From an uncultured Thermodesulfobacteriota bacterium (lineage in GTDB: Bacteria; Desulfobacterota; WTBG01; CAIYCZ01; CAIRTM01): a stretch of DNA of 64,000 nt. The stretch lies in NCBI GenBank assembly GCA_964518865.1, contig CAZFIB010000003.1:10520-74519 (forward strand), in the 5' to 3' direction. Under the pieces are notes generated by a model that ran no database searches, was not told the origin of the DNA, and worked only from the letters and a program-made list of their open reading frames with translations. Within the stretch, counting starts at the first letter, position 1, and every line of letters starts with the position of its first letter. A program made the translations under genes and the position numbers. Positions 8,221-41,419 of the stretch are shown one piece after another.

Positions 8221-8223
8221 GTT

Positions 8224-9345: not shown

Positions 9346-9348
9346 CTG

Positions 9349-9999: not shown

Positions 10000-10221
10000 A
10001 TGGAACCTCTCAAAAAAAATGAGTTGATAAATATCGTGATCAATACATGCCCAAAAAATACGACTTGACAGCAAAACAGCATGCGGAAACATCTGCTGTC
10101 TGTGAACACACTGCCCGGCCCCCCGTATGCAGGAGGGAGATCCGGCGATCATACCGCACACCCGCTTTTTAAAAGCGGTGCGTTCGCACAGGGCCCGTTC
10201 AGTCGTTCTATTAGTGCGGCA

Positions 10222-10701
10222 TTACATAATGCCGGCGCCGACCATGATCAGAATCGCAATCAGCAGTGCGAATACCGCAAAGGTTTCGGACATGACCGAA
10301 AGAACCATATTCTGGCCCAGCGTTTCAGGCTTTTTGGCTACGGATCCCATGGCGGCCCCGGCCGTCATGCCCTGACCGATCGCGGTCAGGCCGCCCAGTG
10401 CGGAAGCAAGACCTGCACCGAGGCTGATAAGCCCCAGCTCCATGGAAATCGGCTTTATCTCGCCGCCGAGCAGCCCGACGCCCATCAGGATGAGTACGGC
10501 CGTTACGAACCCGTAAATTCCCTGCGTCTGGGGAAACGCCTGCAGGATCAGTACCGGGCCGAATTTTTTAGGGTCTTCGGCTATAACGCCCGCGCCGGCG
10601 GCGCCCGCAATACCGACACCGATTCCGGAACCGATAGCGGCAACGCCCATCGCAAGCCCGGCACCAAGTGCCGCCAGTCCTAAGCCAAGTGTAAATTCCA
10701 T
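10222..10701 (-). CDS. atpK: V/A-type ATP synthase proteolipid subunit K (duplicated 4-TM c subunit)
   Basis: 159 aa, Gly/Ala-rich, two-hairpin proteolipid. It contains TQxxY, Q110 and E139, which align to the E. hirae NtpK Na+ site. Confidence 0.9.
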   Translation of the reverse strand: MEFTLGLGLAALGAGLAMGVAAIGSGIGVGIAGAAGAGVIAEDPKKFGPVLILQAFPQTQGIYGFVTAVLILMGVGLLGGEIKPISMELGLISLGAGLASALGGLTAIGQGMTAGAAMGSVAKKPETLGQNMVLSVMSETFAVFALLIAILIMVGAGIM

Positions 10702-10780
10702 ACCTGTATACCTCCTTACTGCGTTATATGAAATGTATTAATTCTGTTTGCATATCACGAGTCGGCTAAAAAAACCGGCC

Positions 10781-12748: not shown

Positions 12749-13063
12749 TTAGCCCTCTCCTATCATCCGGCTGACTATAATCTTTGCAGCTGCCTGCACA
12801 TGGGCTTCGCCGCTTTCGGTGACGCTCCGTGCGCTTTCCCCGCCTTCCTTGACAATTGACTCAGCCTGTGCCTCAGCTTCAGCGCAGGCTTTTTGTATGA
12901 TTTCATCTGCCGTGCGTTCAGCCTCCTTTTCGGCGTCGGCAATGATCTGCTTTGCCTCGGATTCTGATTTTGCCAGCATATCGGCCGCTTTTTTCTTTGA
13001 CGCCTCTATGCGTTCCTGAACTTTCTGTTCGGCTTCCTTGATTTTTTTAAGGGAATCGATCAT
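12749..13063 (-). CDS. atpH: V/A-type ATP synthase subunit H (G-like stalk subunit)
   Basis: 104 aa charged helical protein (KE-rich). It is the first gene of the operon, immediately upstream of atpI. Confidence 0.6.
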   Translation of the reverse strand: MIDSLKKIKEAEQKVQERIEASKKKAADMLAKSESEAKQIIADAEKEAERTADEIIQKACAEAEAQAESIVKEGGESARSVTESGEAHVQAAAKIIVSRMIGEG

Positions 13064-13311: not shown

Positions 13312-16300
13312 ATGAGGTGCACTGATTCTATGATAACACAAACTGCAGGACACAGTTCTAAAGTCATAGGCAGACTTGCAATCATGCTCCTGCTGCTATG
13401 CCCGTCCGCGCACGGAGCAACGCTTGGCGTTCAAAAGGAGGGCGGCGCCTGCGACCCGAGCGGAACACCCTATTATTGCACAATCCAAAGCGCTCTTGCG
13501 GCTGCAAGCAACGGAGACACTGTATGCGTGTATGCAGCGACATCCACCGGCGCCTATGTCGAGGCGTTGACACTGACCAGGCAGGTTTCACTTGTCGGCA
13601 AAAAAAGTGACGGCAGCGATGCCTGGTCGGCGGGCCTTGCAGGCTCACTCAGCGGAGCACCGATCCTGACCATCACCGACACCTCTTCGTTTGCTTCTCA
13701 GCCGGTGGTGACGATAGGCGGGGCATCCGGAATCTCGATGCAGGGCCTTACCATTGACTCGCGCGGCTATCCCCTGACCTGCACCGCCATTACTTCGACC
13801 AGCTACGTATCGGTTACCTACTGCGATTTTCTAATGGGAGGAGATGCCGGAACCGACTGCGCGATCGGCGTGTATGACAATAACATTCCTGACAATATTA
13901 CCGTCACCTTTTGCAGGTTTGTCGGTCAGACAACCGGCACGGCCAACTGGTTTGCGGTTATGGGCGGTGCGGGGATAAGCTCCGTAACGCTTTCCTGCAA
14001 TCAGATAACGCGCACAAGCTCACTGCTCAGCCTTGGCAGTGCCGGCGACGTGCGTAATGTTCTCTACAACCGCAACACGTTTTACGGTACCGCGGGAGCC
14101 ATATTACTCAGTGATCCGCTCGGTGTGTCGGCAAAGGACTTTGCAAACATCCGTATCATTGACAACGAATTCGATGCAACCAATGAATATGCGGTTGTTG
14201 TAAGCAGTAACGTTGGCACAGATGATGCGGAAAACGGCGACTGGCGCTCGAACCTGGTTGTCAACAACAATGCCATCAAGACTTTGACGTCCTCAAGCTA
14301 CCCTGTCGTCGGTTTCGTCAGTTCCACGTTCAATATCACCCCGACCTATTATATGGACGCACAGCTGAACTGGTGGGGCGATCTGGACGGACCGGCGGAT
14401 GTTTCGTCCCGCGTGGATTACAGCCCCTGGATTGCCCAGGCGCAGGAGTACCGCACCGGCGGGGACCCGGCCTACTGGGGCACAAACGACAGCATTACCG
14501 ACGCCCTGGCGCAGGCCGGTGCAAACGACACGGTGTATGTGGTTGCCAAAGGCAGCCCCTTTGCCGAGTCGGTAACCGTGACGACCAGCCTGACCCTTAC
14601 GGGCAGAACAAGCGCGGGTGCGGACGCCTGGACCACCGGCACGGCCGGCGCCGCATCGGGAGCGCCGATTCTCGCTATTACGAATACGTCATTTTCAAAT
14701 CCCTTGATGCTTATTCGATCAACCGCAAACAATACGACTCTCAAAGGGTTTAAAATTAATACGGGTGGTGCTGTGGCACAGCAAATATCATGTACAACTT
14801 TTGGAGGCGCTGTAAGCAATGTTGATATTTCATATTGTGACTATGCGCTTGATGAAGGAGATAAAGCTATCGCTGTTGATTACGGAAACAGCATCAGCAA
14901 CCTTACTGCTACGTACAATACCTTCACCGGCCAAAATGACAATATTAGTAATTGGTTTTTTGTTGGCGAAAATGGGAGCGGAGGTGCAGTAAACAATGCA
15001 ATCCTTTCAAACAATTCAATAACAAATGCGATGTCAACGCTGCAGCTGAACAACTCAATTAAAAAAATACGTTATTCCAATAATACATTTAACAACAGCT
15101 GGGACGGGGGCGCAATTGCAACAAAAGCCGGGTATCTTCTTATTGAAGAACCTAACGATGACAATCCGAACATTATTCAAGGTATTACGATAACGCACAA
15201 CACCTTTAATAACGGTAATCCGGACACCGAGCCGAATGAATTCGGCGTTTTGATAGCAAATACCGTCGATCTTAATGAAACCGACTGGGAATCAAATCTT
15301 GCGATTCATTTCAATAATTTCCTTCAGGATGATGATAACGGAGGTTTCCCAATCGCAGGTTTTCAAACGGGTTCCCCGGATCATGCTAGCGAGATAACCG
15401 CGACAAAAAACTATTGGTCAGCGGCACCTAATGTGAGCAGCAACGGTATGGTTTCCGACAATGTGAAATATAACCCCTGGGTCAGAAGCGGAATCGATGG
15501 CGGATCCTATGCGGTACTCGGCGCCAACACAGTCGACTATATAACCGACACCACGAACGGCATTTACCTGACCGTCGAAACCGGTGCCGGTGGCGCGACC
15601 CTGCTGCCCACAAAATACGTCGGCAATCCCACCTCCACCTCACTGACAAGCGCGCAGGGGTATTTCGATCTCGGAATCAAGTCCGGCACAATCGATAAAA
15701 TAACCGCGACATTCACCTACTCCGGCAGCGACCCGAGCATCTCGAACCCGGCTGTCTGGTATAACGGCAGCACATGGGTTTCCTGCTCCAACCAGTCCCT
15801 CGATGCCTCGGCAAATGCGGTTACCGTTTACATCACCGACACAAGTCAGATTACGCCGACCATGAGCGATGTCGGAACCATTCACAATATAACACCCTCG
15901 ACCTTTTTCGCTCTCGCATTCTCGACAACCACAACGACAGCGCCCTCCACAAGCACATCATCGGCTGCGGCCACAACGACAAGCGTAACCGCCACATCCA
16001 CAACCACCTCAACCGGCGGCGGGGGAGGCAGCACGACAACGTCGACGAGCACCGTCCCGTCGACAACCACATCCGCGCTGCCTGATACCGCGAGCACGAC
16101 CACGATCGGGGTACCGCAGCTGAGCATAACGCCCGCTTCGCTCGAATTCGCCGACAATGAAAGCGCAAAGCAGCTCAGCATTGCCAATACCGGCACCGGA
16201 ACGCTCGACTGGTCGATCGACGACAATGCAACCTCGTATGCTGAGACAAGCGGATGGGTCTTCTCCGCGCGTCCCTCGACAGGACAGGTCATGGATACCC

Positions 16301-17064
16301 CTGATTCCGTCACCCTGACGGTCAGCCGCACGCTTCTGTCGCCGGGCACCTACAGTGCCGAAATCCCGGTCATGTCGAATGCCGGCGATGCCGACATCGA
16401 CGTGGAGATGGAAGTCGCCCGAAGCGAGCTTCCGATCATGTCCGTGCGGCCGCGCCTGCTTCTTTTCCTGCTGGACGATATCGACAACCAGACCATGACC
16501 GTGCGAAACCTTTTTTCAGGAACGCTTCTCTGGGAACTTGAGGACCCGATATATCACCGCGGTGAGGGGTGGCTCTCCTTCACGCCCTCATCGGGCTCTG
16601 TCCGGCGCGAAGCCGACACCGTTACCGTGAGCGTAACGCGGGATGCCATGTCGCCCGGACTGTACAGCGCAACCGTTCCCGTGCGCTCCAACTTCAACCG
16701 CCGGAACATCACGGTCGTCATGCTTGTGCAGGAAGGGCCCGACCTGCAGATCTCGCCGTCGCTTCTGTTTTTCGGCCGCAATGACGAAAATGAAAAAGAG
16801 GTGCTCCTCACGAATACCGGTTCGGGAATTGCGAACTGGACGATTGATTCGGATGCCATCGACTACCGGGGTGGCGACACGCCATGGGTGGTATCGGTAA
16901 GCCCTCTGTCGGGCTCCACCGAAACGCTTGAGGAGGACACCGTTACCGTTACCGTCAGCAGGGACTCTCTCGGTTTCGGCCTGTACCGTGCGATCATTCC
17001 GATAACATCGGCAAACGGCGGCGACAAAAAAATCAACGTGTATTTACTGGTACCGTTTTTGTAA
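13312..17064 (+). CDS. giant secreted surface protein
   Basis: Signal peptide, then two parallel beta-helix modules each ending in an NWWG..DGP motif, then a Thr/Ser-rich linker, then 3x DUF1573/BACON-like Ig domains. Confidence 0.8.
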   Translation: MRCTDSMITQTAGHSSKVIGRLAIMLLLLCPSAHGATLGVQKEGGACDPSGTPYYCTIQSALAAASNGDTVCVYAATSTGAYVEALTLTRQVSLVGKKSDGSDAWSAGLAGSLSGAPILTITDTSSFASQPVVTIGGASGISMQGLTIDSRGYPLTCTAITSTSYVSVTYCDFLMGGDAGTDCAIGVYDNNIPDNITVTFCRFVGQTTGTANWFAVMGGAGISSVTLSCNQITRTSSLLSLGSAGDVRNVLYNRNTFYGTAGAILLSDPLGVSAKDFANIRIIDNEFDATNEYAVVVSSNVGTDDAENGDWRSNLVVNNNAIKTLTSSSYPVVGFVSSTFNITPTYYMDAQLNWWGDLDGPADVSSRVDYSPWIAQAQEYRTGGDPAYWGTNDSITDALAQAGANDTVYVVAKGSPFAESVTVTTSLTLTGRTSAGADAWTTGTAGAASGAPILAITNTSFSNPLMLIRSTANNTTLKGFKINTGGAVAQQISCTTFGGAVSNVDISYCDYALDEGDKAIAVDYGNSISNLTATYNTFTGQNDNISNWFFVGENGSGGAVNNAILSNNSITNAMSTLQLNNSIKKIRYSNNTFNNSWDGGAIATKAGYLLIEEPNDDNPNIIQGITITHNTFNNGNPDTEPNEFGVLIANTVDLNETDWESNLAIHFNNFLQDDDNGGFPIAGFQTGSPDHASEITATKNYWSAAPNVSSNGMVSDNVKYNPWVRSGIDGGSYAVLGANTVDYITDTTNGIYLTVETGAGGATLLPTKYVGNPTSTSLTSAQGYFDLGIKSGTIDKITATFTYSGSDPSISNPAVWYNGSTWVSCSNQSLDASANAVTVYITDTSQITPTMSDVGTIHNITPSTFFALAFSTTTTTAPSTSTSSAAATTTSVTATSTTTSTGGGGGSTTTSTSTVPSTTTSALPDTASTTTIGVPQLSITPASLEFADNESAKQLSIANTGTGTLDWSIDDNATSYAETSGWVFSARPSTGQVMDTPDSVTLTVSRTLLSPGTYSAEIPVMSNAGDADIDVEMEVARSELPIMSVRPRLLLFLLDDIDNQTMTVRNLFSGTLLWELEDPIYHRGEGWLSFTPSSGSVRREADTVTVSVTRDAMSPGLYSATVPVRSNFNRRNITVVMLVQEGPDLQISPSLLFFGRNDENEKEVLLTNTGSGIANWTIDSDAIDYRGGDTPWVVSVSPLSGSTETLEEDTVTVTVSRDSLGFGLYRAIIPITSANGGDKKINVYLLVPFL

Positions 17065-19343: not shown

Positions 19344-20375
19344 TCAGTTCAAACGAACACCCCTGACATAGTATTTTGCAGCGACTATTGCTTTTTCGCG
19401 TTGTATAATAATAAATCTACCCGGCGGCAGCATCGTCGTCTCCTGCTCCTTACCTGAGTCGGCATTAATTTTATAAAGACGGCCGCTGATATCTTTTACA
19501 AAAACACTTCCGGCATGCACTACCGGAGGCACAAGCCATGCCGGTCTGGCAGTTGCAAATGTCCAGAGTACGGTCCCGTATTCTGCATCATAACAATGCA
19601 GTTCACCCGCCGCCACATACAGCCTGTTCCCATAAAAAAGCGGTTTTGCAAATACAGGCCACTGAAGCTTTTTTTCCCATACAATATGACCGGTTTTTAC
19701 ATTGATTCCGAGCAAATATTTTTCCATTGTGGCAACGAATGCCGTTTGGTTTGTTGCGACAAGTACTGTAAGTCGCACGTCGTTTTCAATTCTCCAAAGC
19801 TGCTTGCCGTTAGATCCGTCATAACAGCTTAAAGCGCCCTGAGCAGCCACAAGAACGTCTGTGCCGGCCGCTGCCAGCAATATGCGTCCGCTGTCTGTCC
19901 TGACCGTCCAATGCCGGTGTCCGGTGTCGGAACTAAGACAATAGAGTTTCGATTGTATTACAATATACACAAATTCGTCCATCACTACCGGCTGTGATAC
20001 ACTCCAGTCATCGCCCCAGAAATCCCATTGCAGTTCTCCGGTGAGAGCGTCAAGGCAATACAGGCCGCCGCTCTGGAAGTAGACCCGCCCATTGTGCACA
20101 ACCGGCTTTGAAGGAGACAGCCCAAAAGGCTTAAAGGTCCAGAGCAGGCTGCCGTCCGCCGCATTAAAACAATAAATCCGGTCACTGCTGACATAAACGT
20201 TCGAATTGTTGTCTGTCGCAAGCAGCACCTGAGGAAAGCCGGTACGAAACTTCCATGCATAGTTGACTGTATCTTCGAGACAACCCGCGGAAACGATGAT
20301 AAAAACAATCAAGCAGACTGCTTTAAGCATTTTAGATTGAAATAGACAAAACGTTTGCACAATATTCTTTTTCAC
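19344..20375 (-). CDS. PQQ-repeat beta-propeller lipoprotein (BamB-like)
   Basis: Repeated 'G.LY..D...G...W' propeller blades and a lipobox (…VSAGC). The true start may be the internal ATG at ~20330 (MLKAVCLIVF...). Confidence 0.75.
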   Translation of the reverse strand: MKKNIVQTFCLFQSKMLKAVCLIVFIIVSAGCLEDTVNYAWKFRTGFPQVLLATDNNSNVYVSSDRIYCFNAADGSLLWTFKPFGLSPSKPVVHNGRVYFQSGGLYCLDALTGELQWDFWGDDWSVSQPVVMDEFVYIVIQSKLYCLSSDTGHRHWTVRTDSGRILLAAAGTDVLVAAQGALSCYDGSNGKQLWRIENDVRLTVLVATNQTAFVATMEKYLLGINVKTGHIVWEKKLQWPVFAKPLFYGNRLYVAAGELHCYDAEYGTVLWTFATARPAWLVPPVVHAGSVFVKDISGRLYKINADSGKEQETTMLPPGRFIIIQREKAIVAAKYYVRGVRLN

Positions 20376-20442
20376 AATTTAGATAAAAAAGCGTTTGGTT
20401 TGCAATCCGTGCAAAACAGTTTATAGCGACGATTTCGGAAAG

Positions 20443-20483
20443 TCAAAAACAAACAAAAAGCCCGGCTGCAGTACAGCCGGGCT
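20443..20483 (-). terminator. Rho-independent terminator downstream of giant surface protein 2
   Basis: On the minus strand: AGCCCGGCTG-tactg-CAGCCGGGCT (10-bp GC stem, 5-nt loop) followed by TTTTTGTTTGTTTTT. Confidence 0.7.
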
Positions 20484-20531
20484 GATGGTTCAATAAAGGG
20501 TTTCGCTGCCCCTCTTCGACAGCACCAAAAC

Positions 20532-23500
20532 TTATCTGAAAAACAGCGGGACAAATATGATGACTGTTATTTCCTCATCACCGCCGTTCGACGTGACCGG
20601 CACAACCGCGCGGTGAAAGCCCGGCCGCAGGCTGCTTCGGTCGACACTGATCGTAATGGTTTCTTCACTCTCTTCACCGCTGACGGTACCGCTGTCTGAA
20701 TTGAAGCTTATCCAGTCGCTGCCGCGCCAGCCGTACTGAATGTCGCCGATACTCCACTCCAGAATACCGGTTCCCGCATTCTGAACTGCACACTGCGTTT
20801 CCGACACATTGCGGCGCATAAAGCAGAACGTCCGGCCGAGAGAAAGACGTGGCTCGCCCGTCGGAGGAGGTGCAGGTTCTTCCTCCTGGACGGTCAGAGT
20901 AACAGTTATATCCTTGCTGTCGGAGCCGTCTCGAAGTGCAAGTGTTATAATGGCATTGTATGTGCCCTGGTCCAAACCCTGACGGTCGACCGACACGGTC
21001 ATATCCATGCTGTCGCCCGGAGCAAGAGAGATGATGTTGGCATCCGTGCTGAGCCAGCCGCTGACGTCCGCGTACAGCGTTTCAACATACCAGGTCCCGT
21101 CCGCATCGCCCCGGTTCGTAACCGTAACCGTGGATTGCTCCTGCATCTCGAATGACGTGAATTCAAGGCTGCCTGAGCTGATCTCTACAGCCGGAGCAAG
21201 CGGAACATAGACATCACCCACACCAAGGCGCACGAGAACCGAGTCGGAGCCGCCGCTGGATGTTATGGGGAGATAGGCCTCGTAAATTCCCTCGCTCAAA
21301 CCGTCCCGGTTTACGTAGATGGTGACAATCTGCGTACCGGTACCGCTCGGGGGCTGAATCGACTCGATCCACCCGCTGCCGTCGAGGTACTGGGGGGTCC
21401 CGATGCTCCAGGTGAGGGTGCCGCCGCCGCTGTTGCCGATGGCGATAAAGCGGTCGTCGACGTCTTCAGGGAATCCGATATAGCCGTCCACATCTAGTAC
21501 CGGCGTCGTTGTGGAGCCGCCGCCTCCGCCGGTAGTGCCGCCACCGGTAGTGCCGGAATCGTCGTCATCGCCCGACGATGATCCTTCCATTGCGCCGGCA
21601 CCGAAGTAGGTTCCGCCGAGCTGTTCGATGGACGGGCTGCTGCTGTCTGTAATGACAACCTGCAGACAGTTGCCGACGCTTATTGCTGCCGGGTCGGTCG
21701 GTTTCCATTCGCCGGTATCACCGTTGAACCACATGACCGTATCGCCGCCGCTGCCGCAGATTTCGATTGTTATACTTGTCAACCCGTCAGGATCGGGGAC
21801 AAAAATATCGACATACTTTGCACCGGCCTTCAGCCCGCTGGACTTCCCGGTCGGTGTGCCGCTGTAGCTTGCAGCCATTATTTTGGCCGATCCCTCTACT
21901 TCAAGATTGACACCCGGCACCACGTCCGAGGCGCTGCTGCCGTTCATTTCCATCATGACAACCGAGCCTTCAAACGGACTTTCAAGGTGAGGAGAGAAGC
22001 AAACCAGGCCGCTGACGGATGCACCGCTGCCGGCAGCGGTTTTTCCCGCCGTGCAGTTGTCGGCCGTGTCGCCCGACGGACCGTCCTCAGCACCCCACCA
22101 GTTGTTGCGGGCATCCACGTGCTCGGTTCCGCTGTGCTCCAACCCAACCGGAACTGCAGGTTTGCATATATCCTCATTCTGGTCAGGATTGTACGTAGAC
22201 GGGCAGTTGTCGTCGTCATCCGCTATGCCGTCGCAGTCGGTATCATCAAGCGTAACCGTCTCTTCCTCGGGTGTTGACGGTATTGTTACGTTGCAGTTGC
22301 TGCCGCATGCATCGCCGATTCCGTCATCATCTGAATCCCGCTGATCGGGATTATAAACGTAAGGACAATTGTCATCACATGCTTCTGTCTCACCCTCCGC
22401 ACAGGCAACATCGCCGACGATACCGTTTTGGTCGCCGTCATCCGCTATGCCGTCGCAGTCGGTATCATCAAGCGTAACCGTCTCTTCCTCGGGTGTTGAC
22501 GGTATTGTCACTGTGCAGTTCTCCTGCACACCACCCTCCCCCGGAGTAAACTTGATGTTGTTGAAACTGATCTGCGTACCGTTGACATCATCGACGACAA
22601 AAGCTTTTTGATAGGTGCCGCTATCCATATCAATGGTCAGGCCGAGGATGGTGGCATTTTCCGCACGTATAGAAATCGCGGTGCTGTTCTCTGCAGGCAC
22701 ACCGTTTATAACCGGTGCAGCACCTTCGGCTGCCTTTATCGTCAGATTGGCAACATCAATCGCAAAACCGTCATAATCGCCGGTTTGAAGCTCAATAACC
22801 TTTTCTTCTTCGGGCGGAAGGGCGGCAAAAGCCGTAATGACATCGTTGATAGTTGCATACCCTGATCCGCCGCCCCCTGGACTGAAAAGAATGCTGTTGC
22901 TGTCATCACAGGTATCGCCGCGACCATCCTGGTCCGCATCATTTTGATCTTCGTTGTCCGTGTACGGACAGTTATCGCAGGCATCACCACGAGTGTCACC
23001 GTCACTGTTTGCCTGATCGCCATTTGCAATATCCGGACAGTTGTCACACGCATCACCGATAGTGTCATTATCAAAATCCAACTGATCGGCATTCGCGGTA
23101 TTCGGGCAATTGTCGCAGGCATCACCTACATCGTCACCGTCAAAGTCGGCCTGGGATGTATTGTTATCATACTGGCAGTTGTCGCACGCATCACCGATAG
23201 TGTCATTATCGAAATCCAACTGATCGGCATTCGCGGTATTCGGGCAATTGTCTTCTCCATCCTCAATACCGTCATTATCATCATCATCGTCACAGATATC
23301 GCCGATACCGTCGCCGTCGCTGTCACCGATATCGGGTGCAAATGAAGTAAATGCGGCGTCTTTGGCATAGGGATAAAAGCTCAGATTGGCGCTGACGCCC
23401 ATGACGGCAAGTTCACCGCCGGACCCGTCAGCAGCAGGGGTGCAGCCCAGAAAAGATTCGGAATTGTTAATTCCTCCTGACGGTCCGTCATCGGCTCCCC

Positions 23501-24254
23501 ACCAGTTATACCGCATATCTATGGCAGGCGGATTGTTTGTTGACAAATACTGCCCGAAAGCATGTCCCGCGTAATCAGGATTTCCTTCCCAGGCACTGCT
23601 GTTGTCGTTACCGCTCAAATCATTATATTGTATGAACAATTTCGGGACGTTACCGTAGACCCCGATCCCGCGGTGGTTGCCGGTAATACTGTTTTTCATA
23701 GAAATGTCGCCACCAATAAATATCCAGGACGAACTGGACCCGTTAATAAAAATACCGTAACCGTAGTCCGGGTGTTTGGTAGCATTATCTGGCGCAAAGC
23801 CGGCTATGGTATTATTTCTAATTGCAATGGAAGACCCGGAGTTGATAAAAATGCCGCAATCAGAACCGGTAATGGTAAAACCTTGGAGTGTTGTTAGACT
23901 TCCGGGAGGAGTCTGAATAAATACTGATGCGTATATATCAAGTATGTCAAGTGGAGAAATACCTGACTCGGGGGAAATCTGCTCTCCTTCGATAACCGGT
24001 GCAGCCCCGTCTGCAGCCTTGATGGTCAATCCCTGTTTCCAGATGATAAAACCGTCATAACTGCCGTCAGCCACCTCGATGGTAGAACCGGGGGCCGACA
24101 GATTTATCGCACTTTGAATGTCTAAAAAGTCGGCTGCACCTGTGGCGTTATCGTCATCCACCAGCAACGTGGCGGATTGCGCATTAGCATTAGAAATACA
24201 GACTGCATATGCCAGTAGTGCTATGAATAAACCGTGCATCCATGAAACTTTCAT
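20532..24254 (-). CDS. giant secreted Ca-binding surface protein
   Basis: Signal peptide (…ISNANAQS), then beta-helix modules with NWWG..DGPS motifs, then ~10 TSP3 repeats (DxDxDGxGDxCDNCPxxxNxDQ), then a Gly/Ser/Thr linker, then 3x DUF1573/BACON-like domains. Confidence 0.85.
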   Translation of the reverse strand: MKVSWMHGLFIALLAYAVCISNANAQSATLLVDDDNATGAADFLDIQSAINLSAPGSTIEVADGSYDGFIIWKQGLTIKAADGAAPVIEGEQISPESGISPLDILDIYASVFIQTPPGSLTTLQGFTITGSDCGIFINSGSSIAIRNNTIAGFAPDNATKHPDYGYGIFINGSSSSWIFIGGDISMKNSITGNHRGIGVYGNVPKLFIQYNDLSGNDNSSAWEGNPDYAGHAFGQYLSTNNPPAIDMRYNWWGADDGPSGGINNSESFLGCTPAADGSGGELAVMGVSANLSFYPYAKDAAFTSFAPDIGDSDGDGIGDICDDDDDNDGIEDGEDNCPNTANADQLDFDNDTIGDACDNCQYDNNTSQADFDGDDVGDACDNCPNTANADQLDFDNDTIGDACDNCPDIANGDQANSDGDTRGDACDNCPYTDNEDQNDADQDGRGDTCDDSNSILFSPGGGGSGYATINDVITAFAALPPEEEKVIELQTGDYDGFAIDVANLTIKAAEGAAPVINGVPAENSTAISIRAENATILGLTIDMDSGTYQKAFVVDDVNGTQISFNNIKFTPGEGGVQENCTVTIPSTPEEETVTLDDTDCDGIADDGDQNGIVGDVACAEGETEACDDNCPYVYNPDQRDSDDDGIGDACGSNCNVTIPSTPEEETVTLDDTDCDGIADDDDNCPSTYNPDQNEDICKPAVPVGLEHSGTEHVDARNNWWGAEDGPSGDTADNCTAGKTAAGSGASVSGLVCFSPHLESPFEGSVVMMEMNGSSASDVVPGVNLEVEGSAKIMAASYSGTPTGKSSGLKAGAKYVDIFVPDPDGLTSITIEICGSGGDTVMWFNGDTGEWKPTDPAAISVGNCLQVVITDSSSPSIEQLGGTYFGAGAMEGSSSGDDDDSGTTGGGTTGGGGGSTTTPVLDVDGYIGFPEDVDDRFIAIGNSGGGTLTWSIGTPQYLDGSGWIESIQPPSGTGTQIVTIYVNRDGLSEGIYEAYLPITSSGGSDSVLVRLGVGDVYVPLAPAVEISSGSLEFTSFEMQEQSTVTVTNRGDADGTWYVETLYADVSGWLSTDANIISLAPGDSMDMTVSVDRQGLDQGTYNAIITLALRDGSDSKDITVTLTVQEEEPAPPPTGEPRLSLGRTFCFMRRNVSETQCAVQNAGTGILEWSIGDIQYGWRGSDWISFNSDSGTVSGEESEETITISVDRSSLRPGFHRAVVPVTSNGGDEEITVIIFVPLFFR
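22211..22508 (-). repeat. intragenic near-identical ~78-bp direct repeats (2 copies, ~220 bp apart)
   Basis: The same 78-nt string (…gtcatccgctatgccgtcgcagtcggtatcatcaagcgtaaccgtctcttcctcgggtgttgacggtattgt) occurs at ~22211 and ~22431. It encodes NVTIPSTPEEETVTLDDTDCDGIADD twice. Confidence 0.85.
23043..23251 (-). repeat. intragenic near-identical ~72-bp direct repeats in TSP3 region (2 copies, ~137 bp apart)
   Basis: 70/72 identical copies at ~23043 and ~23180. They encode DNCPNTANADQLDFDNDTIGDACDNC. Confidence 0.85.
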
Positions 24255-24276
24255 GGTTCTTCCCCCCTCTTAGTCT

Positions 24277-24603
24277 TTAGTTATCCATCATGCCGCCGTG
24301 CGGCATTATTTTATGATCGCCGAACTTTACGGCAATTCCGTCCGCATCACAGCGAACAACGGTACCTGTTACTTTTATGCAACCTTTATGCCCTGTCATG
24401 TCAAACAAAGTTGAATTATCGAGAATAATTTCCACCCGTACCTTCGTCCCCACATCGAACGGCCGGCTGGTGGTCAGAAATGCACCCCCGGCACTGATAT
24501 CACGGGTGGCGAGCTGCATACTGTCAAAGCCGTTGAGCATGGTCGCCGGAAAATTAACATCGAACCGTTGATGCTCGCGCTTGTTTTCAATGGTCTGCTG
24601 CAT
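24277..24603 (-). CDS. PilZ domain protein (c-di-GMP receptor)
   Basis: RxxxR (REHQR) and DxSxGG (DISAGGAF) motifs. It lies 22 nt upstream of giant protein 2, which has a GAGGGGGGA RBS. Confidence 0.75.
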   Translation of the reverse strand: MQQTIENKREHQRFDVNFPATMLNGFDSMQLATRDISAGGAFLTTSRPFDVGTKVRVEIILDNSTLFDMTGHKGCIKVTGTVVRCDADGIAVKFGDHKIMPHGGMMDN

Positions 24604-24881
24604 GGGTGCTGCCTTTTATTAAATCGATACCTGAATAAATTTATATTTTGTTAGTTTACAGTTAAAATTATACCATTCAAACCTGAACATAGGCAATCAC
24701 CCTAAGGTATGATTTTGCTTCGTATTTTTTCAGTGCTCATGCAAGAGACATATACGAAAAAAGTATTAAATAAAAATAAGCTTGTATAATTCCTGTTAGA
24801 GACAAAATGTTGCTGCCTGCATGAAAACCGGATACGGAACAAGACGCGGGGAAGGGAGGATAATATATTTATAAAGTAAAA

Positions 24882-25553
24882 TCAGAGGTTTTTGGCTGCC
24901 CACAGGGTGGCCTGCAGGCGGTTGGCAACATTGATCTTTTTATAGATATTGTAAAGATGTGTTTTGATAGTATGAGGACTGACACACAGCTTGTCGGCGA
25001 TTTCCTCATTCTTGCGTCCGATCGCCACGTGCGAAAGTATTTCTATTTCACGCTGCGTCAAAATTTTTCTGACTTTTATGCCGCTTATGTCCTCGTCGCG
25101 GTCTTCGAGAATATACCTGGTCATAACATCGCGGGTGAACCAGAGTTCCTGATTATATAAAGCCGTAATGCCCTTTATAAACAGGTCGGTGTCGGTATCC
25201 TGATAAAAAATACCCCGCACGCCATGTCCCATGCAGCTTTCTTCGATACCCAGTCCCGGCTTGACATTGAACAGCGCAACCACGGAGGCATCAGTCACTT
25301 CACAGATTGATGCAAGCAGGCCGGACATGAAATCGTCCATGGTCTTACCCATACAGTCCCAGAGATAAAGTTCGCTTTCAAACTGTTTTCTTTTTTCCTG
25401 GGATAGTACACTGATATCCTTGATACAGGTACATGACGCCCCTGTTTCAGTCTCGATAAGACTTCCGAGGGCCTGACTGCTCAAAATGTGTGCGCCTACG
25501 ATAAAAATGGTGTGTCCCGCCAGAACTTTGCCTGCCTGTACGTCGTTTTTCAT
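24882..25553 (-). CDS. CsgD-family transcriptional regulator (LuxR-type HTH)
   Basis: Alignable along its whole length with E. coli CsgD. This covers both the N-terminal receiver-like domain and the C-terminal LuxR HTH (LTQREIEILSHVAIGRKNEEIADKL…TIKTHLYNIYKKI). Confidence 0.8.
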   Translation of the reverse strand: MKNDVQAGKVLAGHTIFIVGAHILSSQALGSLIETETGASCTCIKDISVLSQEKRKQFESELYLWDCMGKTMDDFMSGLLASICEVTDASVVALFNVKPGLGIEESCMGHGVRGIFYQDTDTDLFIKGITALYNQELWFTRDVMTRYILEDRDEDISGIKVRKILTQREIEILSHVAIGRKNEEIADKLCVSPHTIKTHLYNIYKKINVANRLQATLWAAKNL

Positions 25554-25805
25554 ATCGTACCCTGAATATATCTGACGTGAAGCGGTAATAAATATGTGTG
25601 ACAGTCTAATACTTTACAACAAAACAAAAAATTATACAATTGATTATTTTCAATAACTTTAAATAATTTTATAAAAAAAGATATCTATGGCAAACCTTCC
25701 GGTAAGGAAAGAAACTGCAAATCGCTGTATTATTATTTTCTGACTACAGCAGTATAAGGTATAATACGTATCAGACAATTCAAAACAACCTATGAGGTGA
25801 ATTAA

Positions 25806-26822
25806 ATGAATCCTGATGTATATGCATTCGGCAGTGCCCTGGTTGACATTCAGGCTACGGTAGATGATCGTCTGCTGATGGAAATCGGTGTTGAAAAAGG
25901 CAATATGTTTCTCACGGACCGCATTCGACAGGAAGAAGTACTAAAGCGTATAATGTCCGCCGAAACCCTTGACCTCGACAGTATCGGATCCGCCCTGGAC
26001 ACGGCGGCAGGGGGCAGCGCAGCAAATACTGTCTATGGTATCAGCCAATTGGGAGGGATGTCGGCCCTCTGCGGCAAGGTCGCCGACGACGGACTCGGCA
26101 GGCTGTATGTCGACAGCATGAATAACAGTGGTGTTACGTTCAGTCACACTACTGCGACCGGCATGACCGGCTCGTGCGTTGTGCTGGTGACAGACGATGC
26201 CCAGCGGACGATGCTGACCTGCCTGGGGGTTTCCAGCGAAATAGGGCAGGACGATATCGATGAGGGGCTCCTGAGCAACGCATCTTATGTATATATCGAG
26301 GGCTACCTCTTTGACAGTCCGCTTGCAACACAGACAATTCTTCACGCCATAGGGCTGGCCCGCAAAAACGGCGTTCGGGTTGCTCTGACCGCCTCGGATG
26401 CCTTCTGCATAGAGCGCCACCGGGATATATTTCTCAGTCTGATTGAGAATGAGATCGACCTGCTGTTTGCAAATGCCCAGGAAGCACAGGCCGTTACCGG
26501 AAAAGGGTCGCTCGGAGAGGCGTGTACGGCACTGTCGGCGCACTGCAGCTGTGCGGTTACGGACGGTCCTGCCGGATCGGTACTCTGCTTCGACGGCCGG
26601 CAGGTAAAAATACCTGCTTTTTCCGTAGAGGCCCGCGACACAACCGGTGCCGGGGATGCCTATGCAGCAGGCCTGCTGTTCGGCCTGACGCATAATTACC
26701 CGCTGGAAACATGCGGCCGCCTCGCGAGCTTTTTTGCATCGCGTGTTGTAGCTCAGACCGGGCCCAGGTACTGCGGTGATATCTGGTCTGAGATTCCGGA
26801 CCTTGGACTTGAGCAGGGATGA
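25806..26822 (+). CDS. PfkB-family carbohydrate/nucleoside kinase (adenosine kinase-like)
   Basis: N-terminal GG motif (AAGGSAANT) and C-terminal DTTGAGDAYAAG anion hole. Confidence 0.85.
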   Translation: MNPDVYAFGSALVDIQATVDDRLLMEIGVEKGNMFLTDRIRQEEVLKRIMSAETLDLDSIGSALDTAAGGSAANTVYGISQLGGMSALCGKVADDGLGRLYVDSMNNSGVTFSHTTATGMTGSCVVLVTDDAQRTMLTCLGVSSEIGQDDIDEGLLSNASYVYIEGYLFDSPLATQTILHAIGLARKNGVRVALTASDAFCIERHRDIFLSLIENEIDLLFANAQEAQAVTGKGSLGEACTALSAHCSCAVTDGPAGSVLCFDGRQVKIPAFSVEARDTTGAGDAYAAGLLFGLTHNYPLETCGRLASFFASRVVAQTGPRYCGDIWSEIPDLGLEQG

Positions 26823-27679
26823 CCGCATCAGCCGACGCCAGAACCATTGTTTTCATTCTCTCGACCAACTATGCGGGCTCCCACTTTCTCTCGCTCATGC
26901 TCGGGAGCAACCCCGGAGCCCGGCACATCGGAGAGGCAAAAGCGTTCAGGAAAAAAAAGCGAAATCCCGGAAAAACTTACTGCAGCCTGTGCGGCAGCGA
27001 AGATCGCTGCCCGCTGTTCAGAAGCGTGACCCCGGACACTATCAGGGATATTTTTGATATTATTTTCACAAACGCGCCGGCCGGTACCGAGGTGCTTGTC
27101 GACATATCCAAAAAACCGTTCTGGGCCCAACGTTTCCTGCACGACAGCCGCTACCACAAAAAGTATATCCACCTTGTCCGGGACCCGCGGGCCCTGATAC
27201 GACGCTGGATTCTGACCTATGACGGCCGTCACCTCTCTCAGCGCTTCAAGGCAGTCCGTTCACGCCCCTCAAAGTGTATTCCTCTGATGCTGCGCGGGTT
27301 GTGGTATGTATATCTGTATAAATGGCTGATACAAAACCGTGAAATAACGGCGTTCCTGAGAGAACATGCACCGGCATACCGGATCGTTACCTATCGGGAT
27401 CTTGCAATCGAAACGGAACGAACCCTCAGTGACATTACGGAGTGGATCGGCCTTGATTTCCGGCGCGATCAGCTCGAATACTGGAAGTTCGAGCATCACG
27501 GCACACAAAAAAGGGGGTATGACCGGGTGCGTCAGGACGGACGATCATATTTCGACGACCGATGGAAGGACTTTCTCTCACCCGAAATAAAAAAGGCAAT
27601 AACAGAAAACGGCAGTATACTGGCCTACCTCCGTGAACAGGGCCTGGTTTTTACGGAAAAAGGTCTTACCTGCGCATAG
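26819..27679 (+). CDS. sulfotransferase-family-like protein
   Basis: The 5'-PSB-like segment ILSTNYAGSHFL and the 3'-PB-like motif LVRDPRALIRRW match the sulfotransferase signature. It has an ATGA overlap with the upstream kinase gene. Confidence 0.45.
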   Translation: MTASADARTIVFILSTNYAGSHFLSLMLGSNPGARHIGEAKAFRKKKRNPGKTYCSLCGSEDRCPLFRSVTPDTIRDIFDIIFTNAPAGTEVLVDISKKPFWAQRFLHDSRYHKKYIHLVRDPRALIRRWILTYDGRHLSQRFKAVRSRPSKCIPLMLRGLWYVYLYKWLIQNREITAFLREHAPAYRIVTYRDLAIETERTLSDITEWIGLDFRRDQLEYWKFEHHGTQKRGYDRVRQDGRSYFDDRWKDFLSPEIKKAITENGSILAYLREQGLVFTEKGLTCA

Positions 27680-40421: not shown

Positions 40422-41014
40422 GCCGGGTGCCTCCGCTGCGGAAACGGATTTCGCCTGCCCGCAATAATCTCCTGGAGTTTCAATATGCCCTCTATCAGCC
40501 CTTCCGGCCGCGGCGGACAGCCCGGCACATAGACATCAACCGGTATCAGCCTGTCGACCCCCTCTATGACATAGTAGTTTCCTTCACCGGCAAACGGCCC
40601 GCCGGAAACCGCGCAATTGCCCAGAGCGATAACCCACTTGGGGTACGGCATCTGCTGGTACAGGGTAATGACCGACTCTGCCATCTTTTTGTTGACCGTG
40701 CCGGCCACGATCATAAGGTCTGCCTGTCGCGGCGAAGGCCGAAACACTTCGGCACCGTAGCGGGAAAGGTCAAAGCGGGCCATGCCCGCGCTCATCATCT
40801 CGATGGCACAGCACGACAGACCGAATGTCAAAGGCCACAGGGAGTTGGCGCGGCAGAGATTCTGCAGCTTTTCGCTGAGCCGCATGCGTCCGAGCACGCC
40901 GGCCTGCTGCAGCTCCTGCCCCTCTTCAAACTTTGAGCGCAGGCGGGAGGCAAACTCGTTGATGTCTAATAAATCTTTTTTTCGCTGCTCCAGAGAAAGA
41001 CTCCTTTCCTCCAT
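40418..41014 (-). CDS. nuoB: NADH-quinone oxidoreductase subunit B (20 kDa, N2 cluster)
   Basis: '[17 protein letters not shown]', '[10 protein letters not shown]' and '[10 protein letters not shown]' cysteine motifs. The exact start is uncertain (overlaps nuoA). Confidence 0.85.
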
Positions 41015-41361: not shown

Positions 41362-41400
41362 GAAAAGAACTAACAAACACCGCTGTAGTACACTGCGGAC

Positions 41401-41419
41401 ATGCAGGCAACACCTGCAT
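41401..41419 (-). promoter_or_regulatory. perfect 7-bp inverted repeat (ATGCAGG-N5-CCTGCAT) ~40-58 nt upstream of nuoA
   Basis: The palindrome is read directly in the nuo leader. It is a candidate operator or 5'-UTR hairpin. Confidence 0.3.

What the first reader, a model, noticed from the sequence alone, without database searches (positions are those of the whole stretch)
24882..25553. Clear CsgD homolog in a deltaproteobacterial-like genome, positioned at the head of the adhesin island
The protein aligns with E. coli CsgD across both domains, the atypical receiver and the LuxR HTH. CsgD is the curli/cellulose master regulator. Here there are no csgBA/bcs genes in the window, and it sits directly upstream of PilZ and giant protein 2. 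This suggests regulatory rewiring of a CsgD-type regulator onto a different matrix component.
Basis: partly seen in the sequence, partly recalled or inferred. Interest (0 to 1): 0.55.

Follow-up and report, generated by a model that had tools for sequence, protein, structure and literature searches.

The report
VpsT-like c-di-GMP regulator with PilZ partner
The gene is real and belongs to the CsgD/VpsT family of biofilm regulators, but it resembles the c-di-GMP-sensing VpsT more than CsgD, and it forms a conserved and apparently undescribed cassette (regulator, fixed DNA control element, small PilZ protein) that sits in front of surface-protein genes in many sulfate-reducer-type bacteria and spirochaetes.

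Summary
Window 24882-25553 (-) is a 223-aa ORF with a degenerate receiver domain and a LuxR/GerE HTH. It is homologous to E. coli CsgD over its full length (26% identity, profile level). A PilZ gene and a 1240-aa secreted TSP3-repeat protein follow on the same strand. No curli or cellulose domain was found in the 49 window ORFs scanned.

The protein is not a CsgD orthologue (109.5 bits against NCBI's cutoff of 250). Its closest solved relative by sequence and fold is V. cholerae VpsT. It carries an exact copy of VpsT's c-di-GMP-binding motif W[F/L/M][T/S]R (W138-F-T-R141), where CsgD has YFTQ. It lacks the acidic pair and the Thr/Ser needed for phosphotransfer.

New here:
- In species-representative genomes, 46 of 86 relatives have a small PilZ orthologue within 1 kb on the same strand (about 1.3 expected).
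- A conserved about 42-nt element (AAAATACGAA-NN-AAAAyCATAC-N7-8-yGATTG) is fused to a sigma70-like promoter between the two genes.
- This element occurs once in the window (24690-24731), directly upstream of pilZ.
- The genes downstream of the pair vary and are mostly giant secreted proteins.

Likely mechanism (inferred): c-di-GMP-dependent dimerisation, then control of the pilZ-giant operon.

The parts
24882..25553 (-). Gene for a 223-aa VpsT/CsgD-family regulator with a degenerate receiver domain (about residues 15-135), helix alpha6 (141-153) and a GerE/LuxR HTH (164-219). Key residues are D66, N96, K127, W138-F139-T140-R141, I148 and H199.
   Evidence: ORF and translation. Pfam and NCBIfam. 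PDB sequence search, top hit VpsT 3kln. AF2 model (pLDDT 86.4) and Foldseek. Alignments with VpsT and CsgD.
25666..25693 (-). Sigma70-like promoter candidate for the regulator gene (TTGCCA-16-TAAAAT), about 113 nt upstream of its ATG.
   Evidence: Consensus scan only. Not tested further.
25606..25615 (+). CTAATACTTT box, inverted relative to the regulator gene and 53 nt upstream of its ATG. It is a candidate autoregulatory site.
   Evidence: The same inverted box lies 31-64 nt upstream of the regulator start in 7 other loci. 26 of 46 CTAATACT occurrences in 1.07 Mb of related loci fall within 300 nt of a regulator gene.
24760..24769 (-). Upstream TAATACTTT box of the composite element in the regulator-pilZ spacer (family consensus TCTAATACT..TT.CTTAG).
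24690..24731 (-). Conserved 42-nt element GAAAAAATACGAAGCAAAATCATACCTTAGGGTGATTGCCTA. The ATACGAA box lies at about -60, the CATAC box at about -48, and ATTG runs into the -35 hexamer. It is the candidate operator of the regulator.
   Evidence: About 45 nt are near-identical to L008, although the flanking proteins are only 74% and 54% identical. The AAATACGA core is in 20 of 39 regulator-pilZ spacers against 0.3 expected. PWM score is 41.4 bits, the only hit above 15 bits in the window. All 38 hits in related loci are on the regulator's strand.
24667..24696 (-). Sigma70-like promoter for pilZ (-35 TTGCCT, 18-nt spacer, TG-extended -10 TATAAT), about 64 nt upstream of the pilZ ATG.
   Evidence: A TTGnnn hexamer, a 17-18 nt spacer and a TAnnnT hexamer recur after the element in the other loci.
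24277..24603 (-). Gene for a 108-aa single-domain PilZ protein with both c-di-GMP-binding motifs: RxxxR (R9-R13) and DxSxxG (D35-G40).
   Evidence: The orthologous small PilZ family next to related regulators has R9 in 53/54, R13 in 54/54 and G40 in 54/54 members.
20532..24254 (-). Gene for a 1240-aa secreted protein with a signal peptide, a NosD-like beta-helix start, thrombospondin type-3 Ca-binding repeats and BACON/Ig-like C-terminal domains. It starts 22 nt after pilZ and is the probable second gene of the operon.
   Evidence: A homologue sits in the same position in L008 (42% identity).
20459..20483 (-). Terminator-like hairpin (11-bp stem with 8 G-C pairs, followed by a T-run) after the giant gene. 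It is the probable end of the pilZ-giant transcription unit.

Best explanation
The ORF encodes a VpsT-type member of the CsgD/VpsT branch of LuxR regulators.

Proposed mechanism:
- An orphan, phosphorylation-incompetent receiver-like domain binds c-di-GMP through W138-F-T-R141 at the base of an extra helix (alpha6).
- Binding drives dimerisation or oligomerisation and lets the C-terminal HTH bind DNA.
- The most likely direct target is the promoter 64 nt upstream of the next gene. There a conserved element (ATACGAA and CATAC boxes at about -60 and -48) abuts the -35 hexamer.
- Through this promoter the regulator controls a two-gene unit: a dedicated small PilZ c-di-GMP receptor and a giant secreted Ca-binding repeat protein.
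- c-di-GMP would then act twice on the same surface component, on transcription through the regulator and after translation through PilZ.

Shown: family membership, motif, fold, gene order, conservation of the PilZ partner and of the DNA element.

Inferred: c-di-GMP binding, that this regulator binds the element, the sign of regulation (activation is favoured by the position of the boxes), and the role of PilZ.
For: Family and fold:
- The best solved relative is VpsT. phmmer gives E 2.6e-25. The family profile gives E 1.8e-40 over chain residues 10-218.
- The AF2 model has pLDDT 86.4 with a helix at 141-153. Foldseek ranks 1-4 are VpsT 3kln and 3klo.

c-di-GMP motif:
- WFTR is an exact match to W[F/L/M][T/S]R (motif cited in PMC4151990).
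- W138 and R141 are invariant in 50 relatives. W-x-[ST]-R is present in 79 of 87 relatives in genome loci.
- In VpsT, R134A abolishes c-di-GMP binding, I141E abolishes dimerisation and H193A affects DNA binding (PMC3359988). The aligned residues R141, I148 and H199 are all present.
- The third motif position is diagnostic. QstR and BrpT carry WLPR and are c-di-GMP independent. QstR P129T becomes c-di-GMP dependent (PMC6237807).

Phosphorylation unlikely:
- G20/A21 replace the acidic pair and N96 replaces Thr/Ser.
- No histidine-kinase domain was found in the 49 ORFs scanned.
- Asp substitutions had no effect in VpsT or QstR.

Link to the downstream genes:
- A PilZ orthologue lies within 1 kb on the same strand for 46 of 86 regulator copies. 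Elsewhere in the same loci there are 6 in 786 kb, so about 1.3 would be expected.
- The conserved element is unique in the window.
- In related loci all 38 hits are on the regulator's strand. 28 lie just upstream of a pilZ, 11 of these in loci not used to train the matrix.
- A motif-first metagenome scan found regulator homologues ending upstream of 25 sites, 22 of them within 66-179 nt. PilZ-family proteins were 27 of 48 first downstream ORFs.

Other:
- No Rfam family, and so no c-di-GMP riboswitch, lies in 20000-26000.
Against: - No binding was measured. c-di-GMP binding is inferred from a four-residue motif plus homology.
- The Pfam VpsT-like_REC score for this protein (23.5) is below the gathering threshold of 27.
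- The conserved element does not obviously match the VpsT T-box WR[CG]YWWR[GC]YW (PMC8754643). Only TACTT in the upstream box fits a half-site.
- The pilZ promoter has a perfect TG-extended -10 and might be constitutive.
- About a third of relatives with enough flanking DNA have no adjacent PilZ, including two fairly close ones, L005 and L007.
- PilZ-upstream arrangements showed no element at 18 bits or more.
- The element also occurs away from any regulator gene. That fits a regulon but would equally fit a different, shared factor.
Confidence: 0.6

Rival explanations
1. CsgD-like mode. The protein is a c-di-GMP-independent regulator whose activity is set by its own expression level or by phosphorylation of the conserved Asp. 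It has been recruited from curli/cellulose control to a different matrix protein.
For: - Full-length homology to CsgD.
- The CsgD model is the top NCBIfam hit.
- D66 is invariant and K127 is retained.
- Several database entries label relatives 'CsgD family' or 'regulator of csgAB operon'.
Against: - The score is far below the CsgD equivalog cutoff (109.5 vs 250).
- The receiver half is not detectably similar to the CsgD receiver structure 5xp0 by sequence. By fold, 5xp0 ranks only 42nd.
- CsgD has YFTQ where this protein and its clade have W-x-[ST]-R.
- The acidic pair and Thr/Ser are missing.
- No curli or cellulose genes are in the window.
- The clade's own conserved PilZ partner argues against a recent rewiring.
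- The database names are automatic and untested.
Confidence: 0.12
2. The regulator is VpsT-like, but the conserved element in the spacer is recognised by another factor, such as a different transcription factor or an alternative sigma factor. The regulator, PilZ and cargo would then be co-regulated neighbours, not regulator and target. The regulator's real sites would lie elsewhere.
For: - The element is also found without a nearby regulator gene in metagenome contigs.
- It does not match the published VpsT T-box.
- The part most often kept at its 3' end (ATTG) is simply a -35 hexamer.
Against: - All 38 hits of 18 bits or more in 1.07 Mb of related loci lie on the regulator's strand, and nearly all sit directly after the regulator gene, across two phyla.
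- The HTH recognition region is almost invariant in the family, as expected if the operator is conserved with it.
- The element's upstream box, CTAATACT, also recurs inverted just upstream of the regulator gene, the usual signature of a factor's own site.
- The variable ATTG-containing part does not fit a sigma28 -10 element (sigma28 consensus from my own knowledge).
Confidence: 0.18
3. A constitutive dimer of the QstR/BrpT type. The protein is a family member that dimerises and binds DNA without any nucleotide, and the WFTR motif is retained only for structural reasons.
For: c-di-GMP-independent relatives exist in Vibrio (QstR and BrpT; PMC6237807).
Against: - Those proteins carry WLPR. Restoring Thr makes QstR c-di-GMP dependent.
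- The target has the canonical Thr, and the whole clade keeps Ser or Thr at that position.
- The obligatory pairing with a c-di-GMP-binding PilZ places the locus in c-di-GMP signalling.
Confidence: 0.1

Closest known systems
Vibrio cholerae VpsT (PDB 3KLN, 3KLO), the c-di-GMP-dependent LuxR-type biofilm regulator
   Same: - Same two-domain architecture with the extra helix alpha6.
- Best hit by sequence and by fold.
- 43% identity over the C-terminal 115 residues and 28% over the multiple alignment.
- Exact W[F/L/M][T/S]R motif.
- The residues aligned to R134, I141 and H193 are conserved, as is the Asp at the phospho-acceptor position.
- Orphan, with no cognate kinase nearby.
- It regulates matrix or surface genes other than curli, so 'a different matrix component' is already normal for this family.
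   Different: - Different phylum (Thermodesulfobacteriota-like).
- The receiver half is weakly similar, and this protein scores below the Pfam PF21155 cutoff.
- vpsT is not next to a PilZ gene in V. cholerae (my own knowledge, not tested here). This clade is paired with a dedicated PilZ in about half of cases.
- The conserved DNA element is long, oriented and non-palindromic. The VpsT T-box is a degenerate 10-bp palindrome (PMC8754643).
- The probable target is a giant secreted repeat protein, not a polysaccharide operon.
E. coli and Salmonella CsgD, the curli/cellulose master regulator (NCBIfam NF007505; receiver-domain structure 5XP0)
   Same: - Full-length homology (26% identity over 210 columns).
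- 38% identity in the HTH half.
- Atypical receiver lacking the acidic pair, with the Asp retained.
- Nearly identical recognition-helix sequence (TVKTHLYN.FKKI).
   Different: - Fails the equivalog cutoff.
- CsgD has YFTQ instead of WFTR, and Asn where the target has K127.
- No csgBAC, csgEFG, adrA or bcs genes in the window.
- CsgD sits divergently from csgBA. This gene is co-directional with pilZ.
Vibrio QstR and BrpT, VpsT homologues that act independently of c-di-GMP
   Same: Same family and same dimerisation-dependent LuxR mechanism. They show that family members control quite different regulons, such as competence and T6SS.
   Different: They carry WLPR. The target carries the canonical WFTR, which in QstR P129T is sufficient to impose c-di-GMP dependence (PMC6237807).
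Two-tier c-di-GMP control of matrix components, for example FleQ plus PelD for Pel, or a transcription factor plus the BcsA PilZ domain for cellulose (established knowledge, not tested here). Also MrkH, a PilZ-domain transcription activator of fimbriae (PMC3161979, listed)
   Same: One second messenger acts both on transcription and on a post-translational receptor for the same surface structure. PilZ is the post-translational sensor.
   Different: Here the two receptors are separate small proteins encoded side by side as a conserved cassette, with interchangeable cargo genes downstream. No polysaccharide synthase is involved in the window's unit.

Membership tests
CsgD (curli/cellulose master regulator; NCBIfam NF007505 equivalog) | Whole-protein score at or above the curated equivalog cutoff (250 bits) | tested here: not met
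   109.5 bits, covering residues 44-223.
CsgD (curli/cellulose master regulator; NCBIfam NF007505 equivalog) | Two-domain architecture: atypical receiver plus LuxR/GerE HTH, homologous over the full length | tested here: met
   hhalign of the family profile against E. coli CsgD gives 210 aligned columns and probability 99.8%. GerE scores 69.2 bits.
CsgD (curli/cellulose master regulator; NCBIfam NF007505 equivalog) | Genomic association with curli (csgBAC, csgEFG) or cellulose (adrA, bcs) genes | tested here: not met
   None found among 49 window ORFs scanned with Pfam. For comparison, the E. coli csg locus is. Loci elsewhere in the genome cannot be examined.
VpsT-type c-di-GMP-dependent LuxR regulators | W[F/L/M][T/S]R motif at the base of helix alpha6 | tested here: met
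   W138-F-T-R141 aligns with VpsT W131-L-T-R134. W and R are invariant in 50 relatives. The motif definition comes from PMC4151990 and PMC6237807.
VpsT-type c-di-GMP-dependent LuxR regulators | Receiver fold extended by a sixth helix, with a hydrophobic dimer-interface residue (VpsT I141) | tested here: met
   The AF2 model has a helix at 141-153, and the Foldseek top hits are 3kln and 3klo. I148 aligns with I141. This rests on a predicted model, not a solved structure.
VpsT-type c-di-GMP-dependent LuxR regulators | Pfam PF21155 (VpsT-like_REC) at or above the gathering score | tested here: not met
   23.5 bits against 27. Many relatives at 45-63% identity do carry PF21155 in precomputed annotation.
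VpsT-type c-di-GMP-dependent LuxR regulators | [quoted passage not shown] | not testable with these tools
   Needs ITC or DRaCALA, and EMSA with and without c-di-GMP.
VpsT-type c-di-GMP-dependent LuxR regulators | Recognises a T-box (WR[CG]YWWR[GC]YW) | tested here: inconclusive
   By eye, the conserved element has no full T-box. Only TACTT in the upstream box fits a half-site.
Canonical phospho-dependent NarL/FixJ response regulators | Complete phosphotransfer pocket: acidic pair after beta1, phospho-acceptor Asp, Thr/Ser after beta4, Lys after beta5 | tested here: not met
   D66 and K127 are present. G20/A21 replace the acidic pair and N96 replaces Thr/Ser. The CheY reference positions are from established knowledge.
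Canonical phospho-dependent NarL/FixJ response regulators | Cognate histidine kinase encoded nearby | tested here: not met
   No HisKA or HATPase_c domain in any of the 49 window ORFs scanned. The neighbours are PilZ and a PfkB kinase.
PilZ c-di-GMP receptors (the neighbouring gene 24277-24603) | PilZ domain with RxxxR and [D/N]xSxxG motifs | tested here: met
   Pfam PilZ scores 53.9 bits. R9-E-H-Q-R13 and D35-I-S-A-G-G40 are present and conserved in 54 orthologues.

The most novel reading that the evidence does not exclude
The regulator is one part of a portable 'dual c-di-GMP receptor cassette'. The cassette consists of a VpsT-like transcription factor, a fixed oriented operator-promoter about 90 nt long, and a dedicated ~110-aa PilZ protein.

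It has been kept intact across Desulfobacterota (Desulfobacterales, Syntrophales, Desulfovibrionales) and Spirochaetota, while the cargo behind it is swapped. Cargo seen here includes TSP3/beta-helix giants, FecR-domain giants of 1000-2400 aa, a T2SSE-MshEN ATPase, and Wzz/GNVR polysaccharide genes.

The small PilZ would be more than a target. It would be an obligatory partner, either gating export or anchoring of whatever cargo follows, or feeding back on the regulator. No such cassette came up in the literature searches I ran.
Probability: 0.35. Interest if true: 0.65.

Novelty: new variant of a known kind. Interest (0 to 1): 0.5.

Why it matters
VpsT is essentially the only structurally understood c-di-GMP-sensing member of the LuxR/CsgD family, and the full-text searches run here returned VpsT-homologue work only from Vibrio.

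If the reading here is right, several things follow.
- VpsT-type sensing is widespread in anaerobic sulfate-reducing and syntrophic lineages and in spirochaetes, with at least 484 relatives among species-representative genomes.
- These regulators come with a recognisable DNA element, which makes their regulons predictable from sequence alone.
- They are wired to a dedicated PilZ protein and to giant secreted proteins. This gives a concrete, testable entry point into how uncultured Desulfobacterota control aggregation, surface attachment or consortium formation.
- It corrects a common automatic annotation ('CsgD family / regulator of csgAB operon') that suggests the wrong ligand logic and the wrong targets.

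Tried and rejected
- c-di-GMP riboswitch or other RNA in the spacer: Rfam E-value scan of 20000-26000 found nothing.
- Curli or cellulose genes elsewhere in the window: none in 49 ORFs.
- PfkB kinase as the conserved functional partner. It is the divergent neighbour in the closest clade only (L005, L007, L009; two genes away in L008) and is absent from the other 75 or so loci. I treat it as local synteny.
- The giant protein as a conserved partner. Homologues of giant 2 were found only in L008, L067 and L084. The cargo is variable.
- Element copies in front of giant 1, the BamB-like gene or the Wzy gene: none at 15 bits or more.
- Sigma28 promoter reading of the element: rejected, because the kept part is ATTG (a -35 TTG) followed by a TAnnnT at 17-18 nt, not GCCGATAA.
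- Match to the VpsT T-box: not found.
- Internal repeats or palindromes in the two spacers gave only short AT-rich matches of doubtful meaning.
- CdbA/CdbS of Myxococcus as a gene-pair analogue: rejected, because cdbS is not in an operon with cdbA (PMC10313047).
- Organism name: the exact-sequence look-up gave no name or accession.
- Two PMC look-ups (Krasteva 2010; Chou and Galperin 2016) were not held. The motif is therefore cited from secondary papers.
- The search for a strongly conserved motif upstream of the regulator gene gave only the inverted CTAATACT box in a minority of loci.
Full report
**1. The observation**

Window 24882-25553 holds a 223-aa ORF on the minus strand with an ATG start.
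- Pfam finds a C-terminal GerE/LuxR HTH (69.2 bits, residues 164-219). It also finds a sub-threshold VpsT-like receiver domain (23.5 bits against a cutoff of 27).
- BLASTP against E. coli K-12 CsgD (fetched) aligns only residues 112-223 (38% identity, E 5e-23).
- A profile of 50 relatives aligns with CsgD over 210 columns spanning both domains (26% identity, probability 99.8%).
- On the same strand the gene is followed by a 278-nt AT-rich spacer and a 108-aa PilZ gene (24277-24603). After a 22-nt gap comes a 1240-aa gene (20532-24254). Its product has a signal peptide, a NosD-like beta-helix start, thrombospondin type-3 repeats and BACON/Ig-like C-terminal domains.
- Pfam scans of 49 ORFs across the window found no curli or cellulose domain.
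- The cluster lies between a V-type ATPase operon and a pfkB / sulfotransferase / PGM / Nuo block. The 'island' is therefore small: giant 1, a Wzy_C-TPR protein, a BamB-like propeller, giant 2, PilZ and the regulator.

**2. What the protein is**

*Not a CsgD orthologue.* NCBI's CsgD equivalog model is the top NCBIfam hit, but at 109.5 bits against a cutoff of 250.

*Closest solved relative is VpsT.*
- By sequence, V. cholerae VpsT matches at E 2.6e-25 with the single protein. With the family profile it matches at E 1.8e-40 over chain residues 10-218.
- The CsgD receiver-domain structure 5xp0 did not reach E 0.001.
- An AlphaFold2 model built on the 50-sequence alignment is confident (pLDDT 86.4). 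It shows a five-stranded receiver fold, an extra helix at 141-153 and a four-helix HTH.
- Foldseek against the PDB ranks VpsT chains 1-4 (E about 2e-12). The CsgD receiver appears at rank 42 (E 1.5e-5).
- Direct BLASTP gives 99.4 bits and 43% identity to VpsT, against 79.7 bits and 38% to CsgD.

*The c-di-GMP motif.*
- In the alignment of target, VpsT, CsgD and six relatives, the target reads L-W138-F-T-R141. VpsT reads M-W131-L-T-R134 and CsgD reads C-Y-F-T-Q.
[quoted passage not shown] The aligned target residues are R141, I148 and H199.
- The third motif position is diagnostic. QstR and BrpT carry WLPR and work without c-di-GMP. QstR P129T, which restores WLTR, becomes strictly c-di-GMP dependent.
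- W138 and R141 are invariant in 50 relatives. W-x-[ST]-R is present in 79 of 87 relatives found in genome loci.

- D66 is retained and invariant, and the beta5 Lys (K127) is present.
- The acidic pair after beta1 is G20/A21, and the beta4 Thr/Ser is N96.
- No histidine-kinase domain occurs in any of the 49 ORFs scanned.
- Asp substitutions had no effect in VpsT or QstR. Phosphorylation control is therefore unlikely.

**3. Surroundings and relatives**

*Distribution.* The family is large. There are 290 hits at E<=1e-5 in the word-indexed protein search. Most are from Desulfobacterales, Syntrophales, other Thermodesulfobacteriota and Spirochaetota MAGs. Some genomes carry several paralogues; CP070692.1 has three. 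The nearest species representative is 74% identical (L008, a Thermodesulfobacteriota MAG).

*PilZ pairing.*
- In 79 loci from different species, I searched for homologues of the window's neighbours.
- A small PilZ orthologue lies within 1 kb on the same strand for 46 of 86 regulator copies: 41 downstream and 5 upstream. That is 46 of the 70 copies with adequate flanks.
- The rest of the same loci holds 6 such ORFs in 786 kb, so about 1.3 would be expected by chance.
- These PilZ proteins form one coherent family of about 105-145 aa. RxxxR is essentially invariant and the [DN]x[SC]xGG glycine is invariant.
- The window's PilZ has R9-x3-R13 and D35-I-S-A-G-G40.

*Other neighbours.*
- The PfkB neighbour is conserved only in the closest clade.
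- Genes after the pair vary:
  - giants with an N-terminal FecR domain, 1027-2371 aa (L010, L012, L036, L046, L051, L061);
  - TSP3 / CarboxypepD_reg / beta-helix giants (L035, L067, and L008, which is homologous to giant 2);
  - a T2SSE ATPase with an MshEN domain (L018);
  - Wzz/GNVR (L056);
  - PMT_2-TPR (L024).

**4. A conserved DNA element**

*Discovery.*
- Aligning the regulator-pilZ spacer with those of L008 and L009 revealed a block of about 45 nt. It is nearly identical between the window and L008, although the flanking proteins are only 74% and 54% identical.
- K-mer counting over 39 such spacers found AAATACGA in 20, against 0.3 expected from shuffles.
- The aligned sites give the consensus TCTAATACT..TT.CTTAG-N~16-AAAATACGAA-NN-AAAAyCATAC-N7-8-yGATTG. 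A TAnnnT hexamer follows 17-18 nt after the TTG. This is a sigma70-type promoter whose -35 hexamer is fused to the element.
- In the window the promoter scan independently called TTGCCT-18-TATAAT with a TG extension at 24696-24667, 64 nt upstream of the pilZ ATG.
- The ATACGAA and CATAC boxes then sit near -60 and -48, positions typical of class I activators. This positional reading is inference.

*Specificity.*
- A 42-nt weight matrix scores 41.4 bits at 24690-24731 (-). Nothing else in the 64-kb window exceeds 7.1 bits.
- In 1.07 Mb of related loci, all 38 hits at 18 bits or more are on the regulator's strand.
- 28 of them lie directly upstream of a pilZ, 11 of these in loci not used for training. 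Most of the remainder lie just after a regulator gene or before a second downstream gene.

*Motif-first test.*
- 66 carry the full element including ATTG, in 56 distinct contexts.
- 25 of all 120 stretches have a regulator homologue ending upstream, 22 of them within 66-179 nt.
- 27 of 48 first downstream ORFs are PilZ-family. Most of the rest are signal-peptide or lipoprotein ORFs, including a FecR-type giant.
- The 54 hits without ATTG are unrelated sequences, for example one gut sequence repeated about 15 times.

*Additional boxes and other features.*
- The element's upstream box (CTAATACT) also occurs inverted at 25606-25615, 53 nt upstream of the regulator's own ATG. The same inverted box sits at equivalent positions in seven other loci. 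This hints at autoregulation.
- No Rfam family is present in 20000-26000.
- A strong terminator-like hairpin at 20459-20483 follows the giant gene. The predicted unit is pilZ plus giant 2, and the BamB-like and Wzy genes form a separate unit without the element.

**5. Mechanism**

*Best-supported reading (confidence about 0.6 for the whole chain).*
- The protein is an orphan, phosphorylation-incompetent VpsT-type sensor.
- It binds c-di-GMP at W138/R141, dimerises through alpha6 (I148) and binds the conserved boxes upstream of the pilZ promoter.
- It thereby controls, and probably activates, pilZ and the giant secreted protein.
- PilZ adds a second, post-translational c-di-GMP checkpoint.

*Shown:* homology, motif, predicted fold, gene order, the statistics of the PilZ pairing, and the conservation, orientation and location of the element.

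*Inferred:* ligand binding, who binds the element, the sign of regulation, and the function of PilZ.

*Rivals:*
- a CsgD-like ligand-independent mode (0.12);
- the element belongs to another factor (0.18);
- a constitutive dimer of the QstR type (0.10).

**6. Comparison with known systems and novelty**

- The protein works like VpsT and meets the sequence and fold criteria I could test. Two things fall short: the Pfam domain score is marginally low, and the DNA element does not resemble the VpsT T-box (PMC8754643).
- It is not a CsgD orthologue.
- That a family member controls something other than curli is not new. VpsT controls VPS, and QstR controls competence and T6SS.
- What appears new is the conserved cassette of VpsT-like regulator, fixed operator-promoter and dedicated PilZ, with interchangeable surface-protein cargo, in Desulfobacterota and Spirochaetota.
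- Full-text searches for VpsT with PilZ and Desulfo-, and for VpsT homologues, returned nothing describing such a cassette. The homologue search returned only Vibrio work.
- I therefore rate the finding as a new variant of a known kind, with interest 0.5.

**7. Limits**

- All functional statements rest on comparative sequence evidence.
- The loci are mostly MAG contigs.
- My gene calls in the loci are crude longest-ORF calls.
- The weight matrix was trained on the same class of spacer that it then finds. The window uniqueness, the strand bias, the 11 untrained loci and the motif-first metagenome scan are the independent parts of that evidence.
- The source organism could not be named.

Noticed in passing
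window 47447-47512 (+), upstream of ORF 47637-48593 (+): An exact CTAATACTTT box is followed about 20 nt later by a degenerate copy of the element (AAAATAAGAATATAAATACGC-N8-CGATTG) and a TATATT -10-like hexamer. This lies about 125 nt upstream of a 318-aa signal-peptide protein with a weak DUF4114 hit. The full-matrix score is only 6.3 bits, so it is not significant alone. It may be a second, weaker target.
   Followed up: partly
window 25606-25615 (+): A CTAATACTTT box, inverted relative to the regulator gene, lies 53 nt upstream of its ATG. The same inverted box lies 31-64 nt upstream of the regulator start in L008, L017, L021, L022, L030, L031 and L069. This suggests autoregulation.
   Followed up: partly
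window 43540-44691 (-): A receiver-GGDEF protein (GGDEF 149 bits, Response_reg 85 bits) lies 18 kb from the regulator. It is a PleD/WspR-type diguanylate cyclase and a possible local source of c-di-GMP.
   Followed up: no
window 13312-17064 (+) and 20532-24254 (-): The two giant proteins (1250 and 1240 aa) both have signal peptides and a similar beta-helix-like N-terminal start. They also share a near-identical C-terminal tail (...ITS.GGD..I.V...VP.F). Giant 1 has no Pfam hit at all and no copy of the element upstream.
   Followed up: partly
L010, L012, L036, L046, L051, L061 (ORF directly after regulator-PilZ); also L153: A recurrent class of giant ORFs (1027-2371 aa) has an N-terminal FecR domain as its only recognisable domain. 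These ORFs sit directly behind the regulator-PilZ pair in several Desulfobacterales and Deltaproteobacteria MAGs. The family looks uncharacterised.
   Followed up: partly
L018 2768-5914 (+): Behind one regulator-PilZ pair sits a 1048-aa T2SSE ATPase with an MshEN domain, which is a third kind of c-di-GMP receptor. That gives three c-di-GMP sensors in a row.
   Followed up: no
window 25806-26822 (+); L005, L007, L009 (and L008, two genes away): A PfkB-family sugar kinase is the divergent neighbour of the regulator in the closest clade only (54-62% identity between kinases). In the window a sulfotransferase-like gene (26819-27679) overlaps its end by 4 nt.
   Followed up: partly
window 24001-26000; genes 24882-25553 and 19344-20375: G+C drops locally to 43.6%, against about 55% for the window. 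The regulator and the BamB-like gene are each 47% G+C, and the two spacers are very AT-rich. I did not test whether this reflects horizontal origin or only AT-rich regulatory DNA.
   Followed up: no
window 3996-13063 (-) and 29959-41562 (-): A V-type ATPase operon (subunits D, B, A, C, E, I, G-like) and a Nuo/Mrp-type NADH dehydrogenase block flank the surface-protein cluster. These are ordinary housekeeping genes and show that the 'island' is short.
   Followed up: yes
L036, L068, L074: Some loci carry two tandem small PilZ genes next to the regulator. In L036 each has its own copy of the element (33.8 and 43.6 bits).
   Followed up: no
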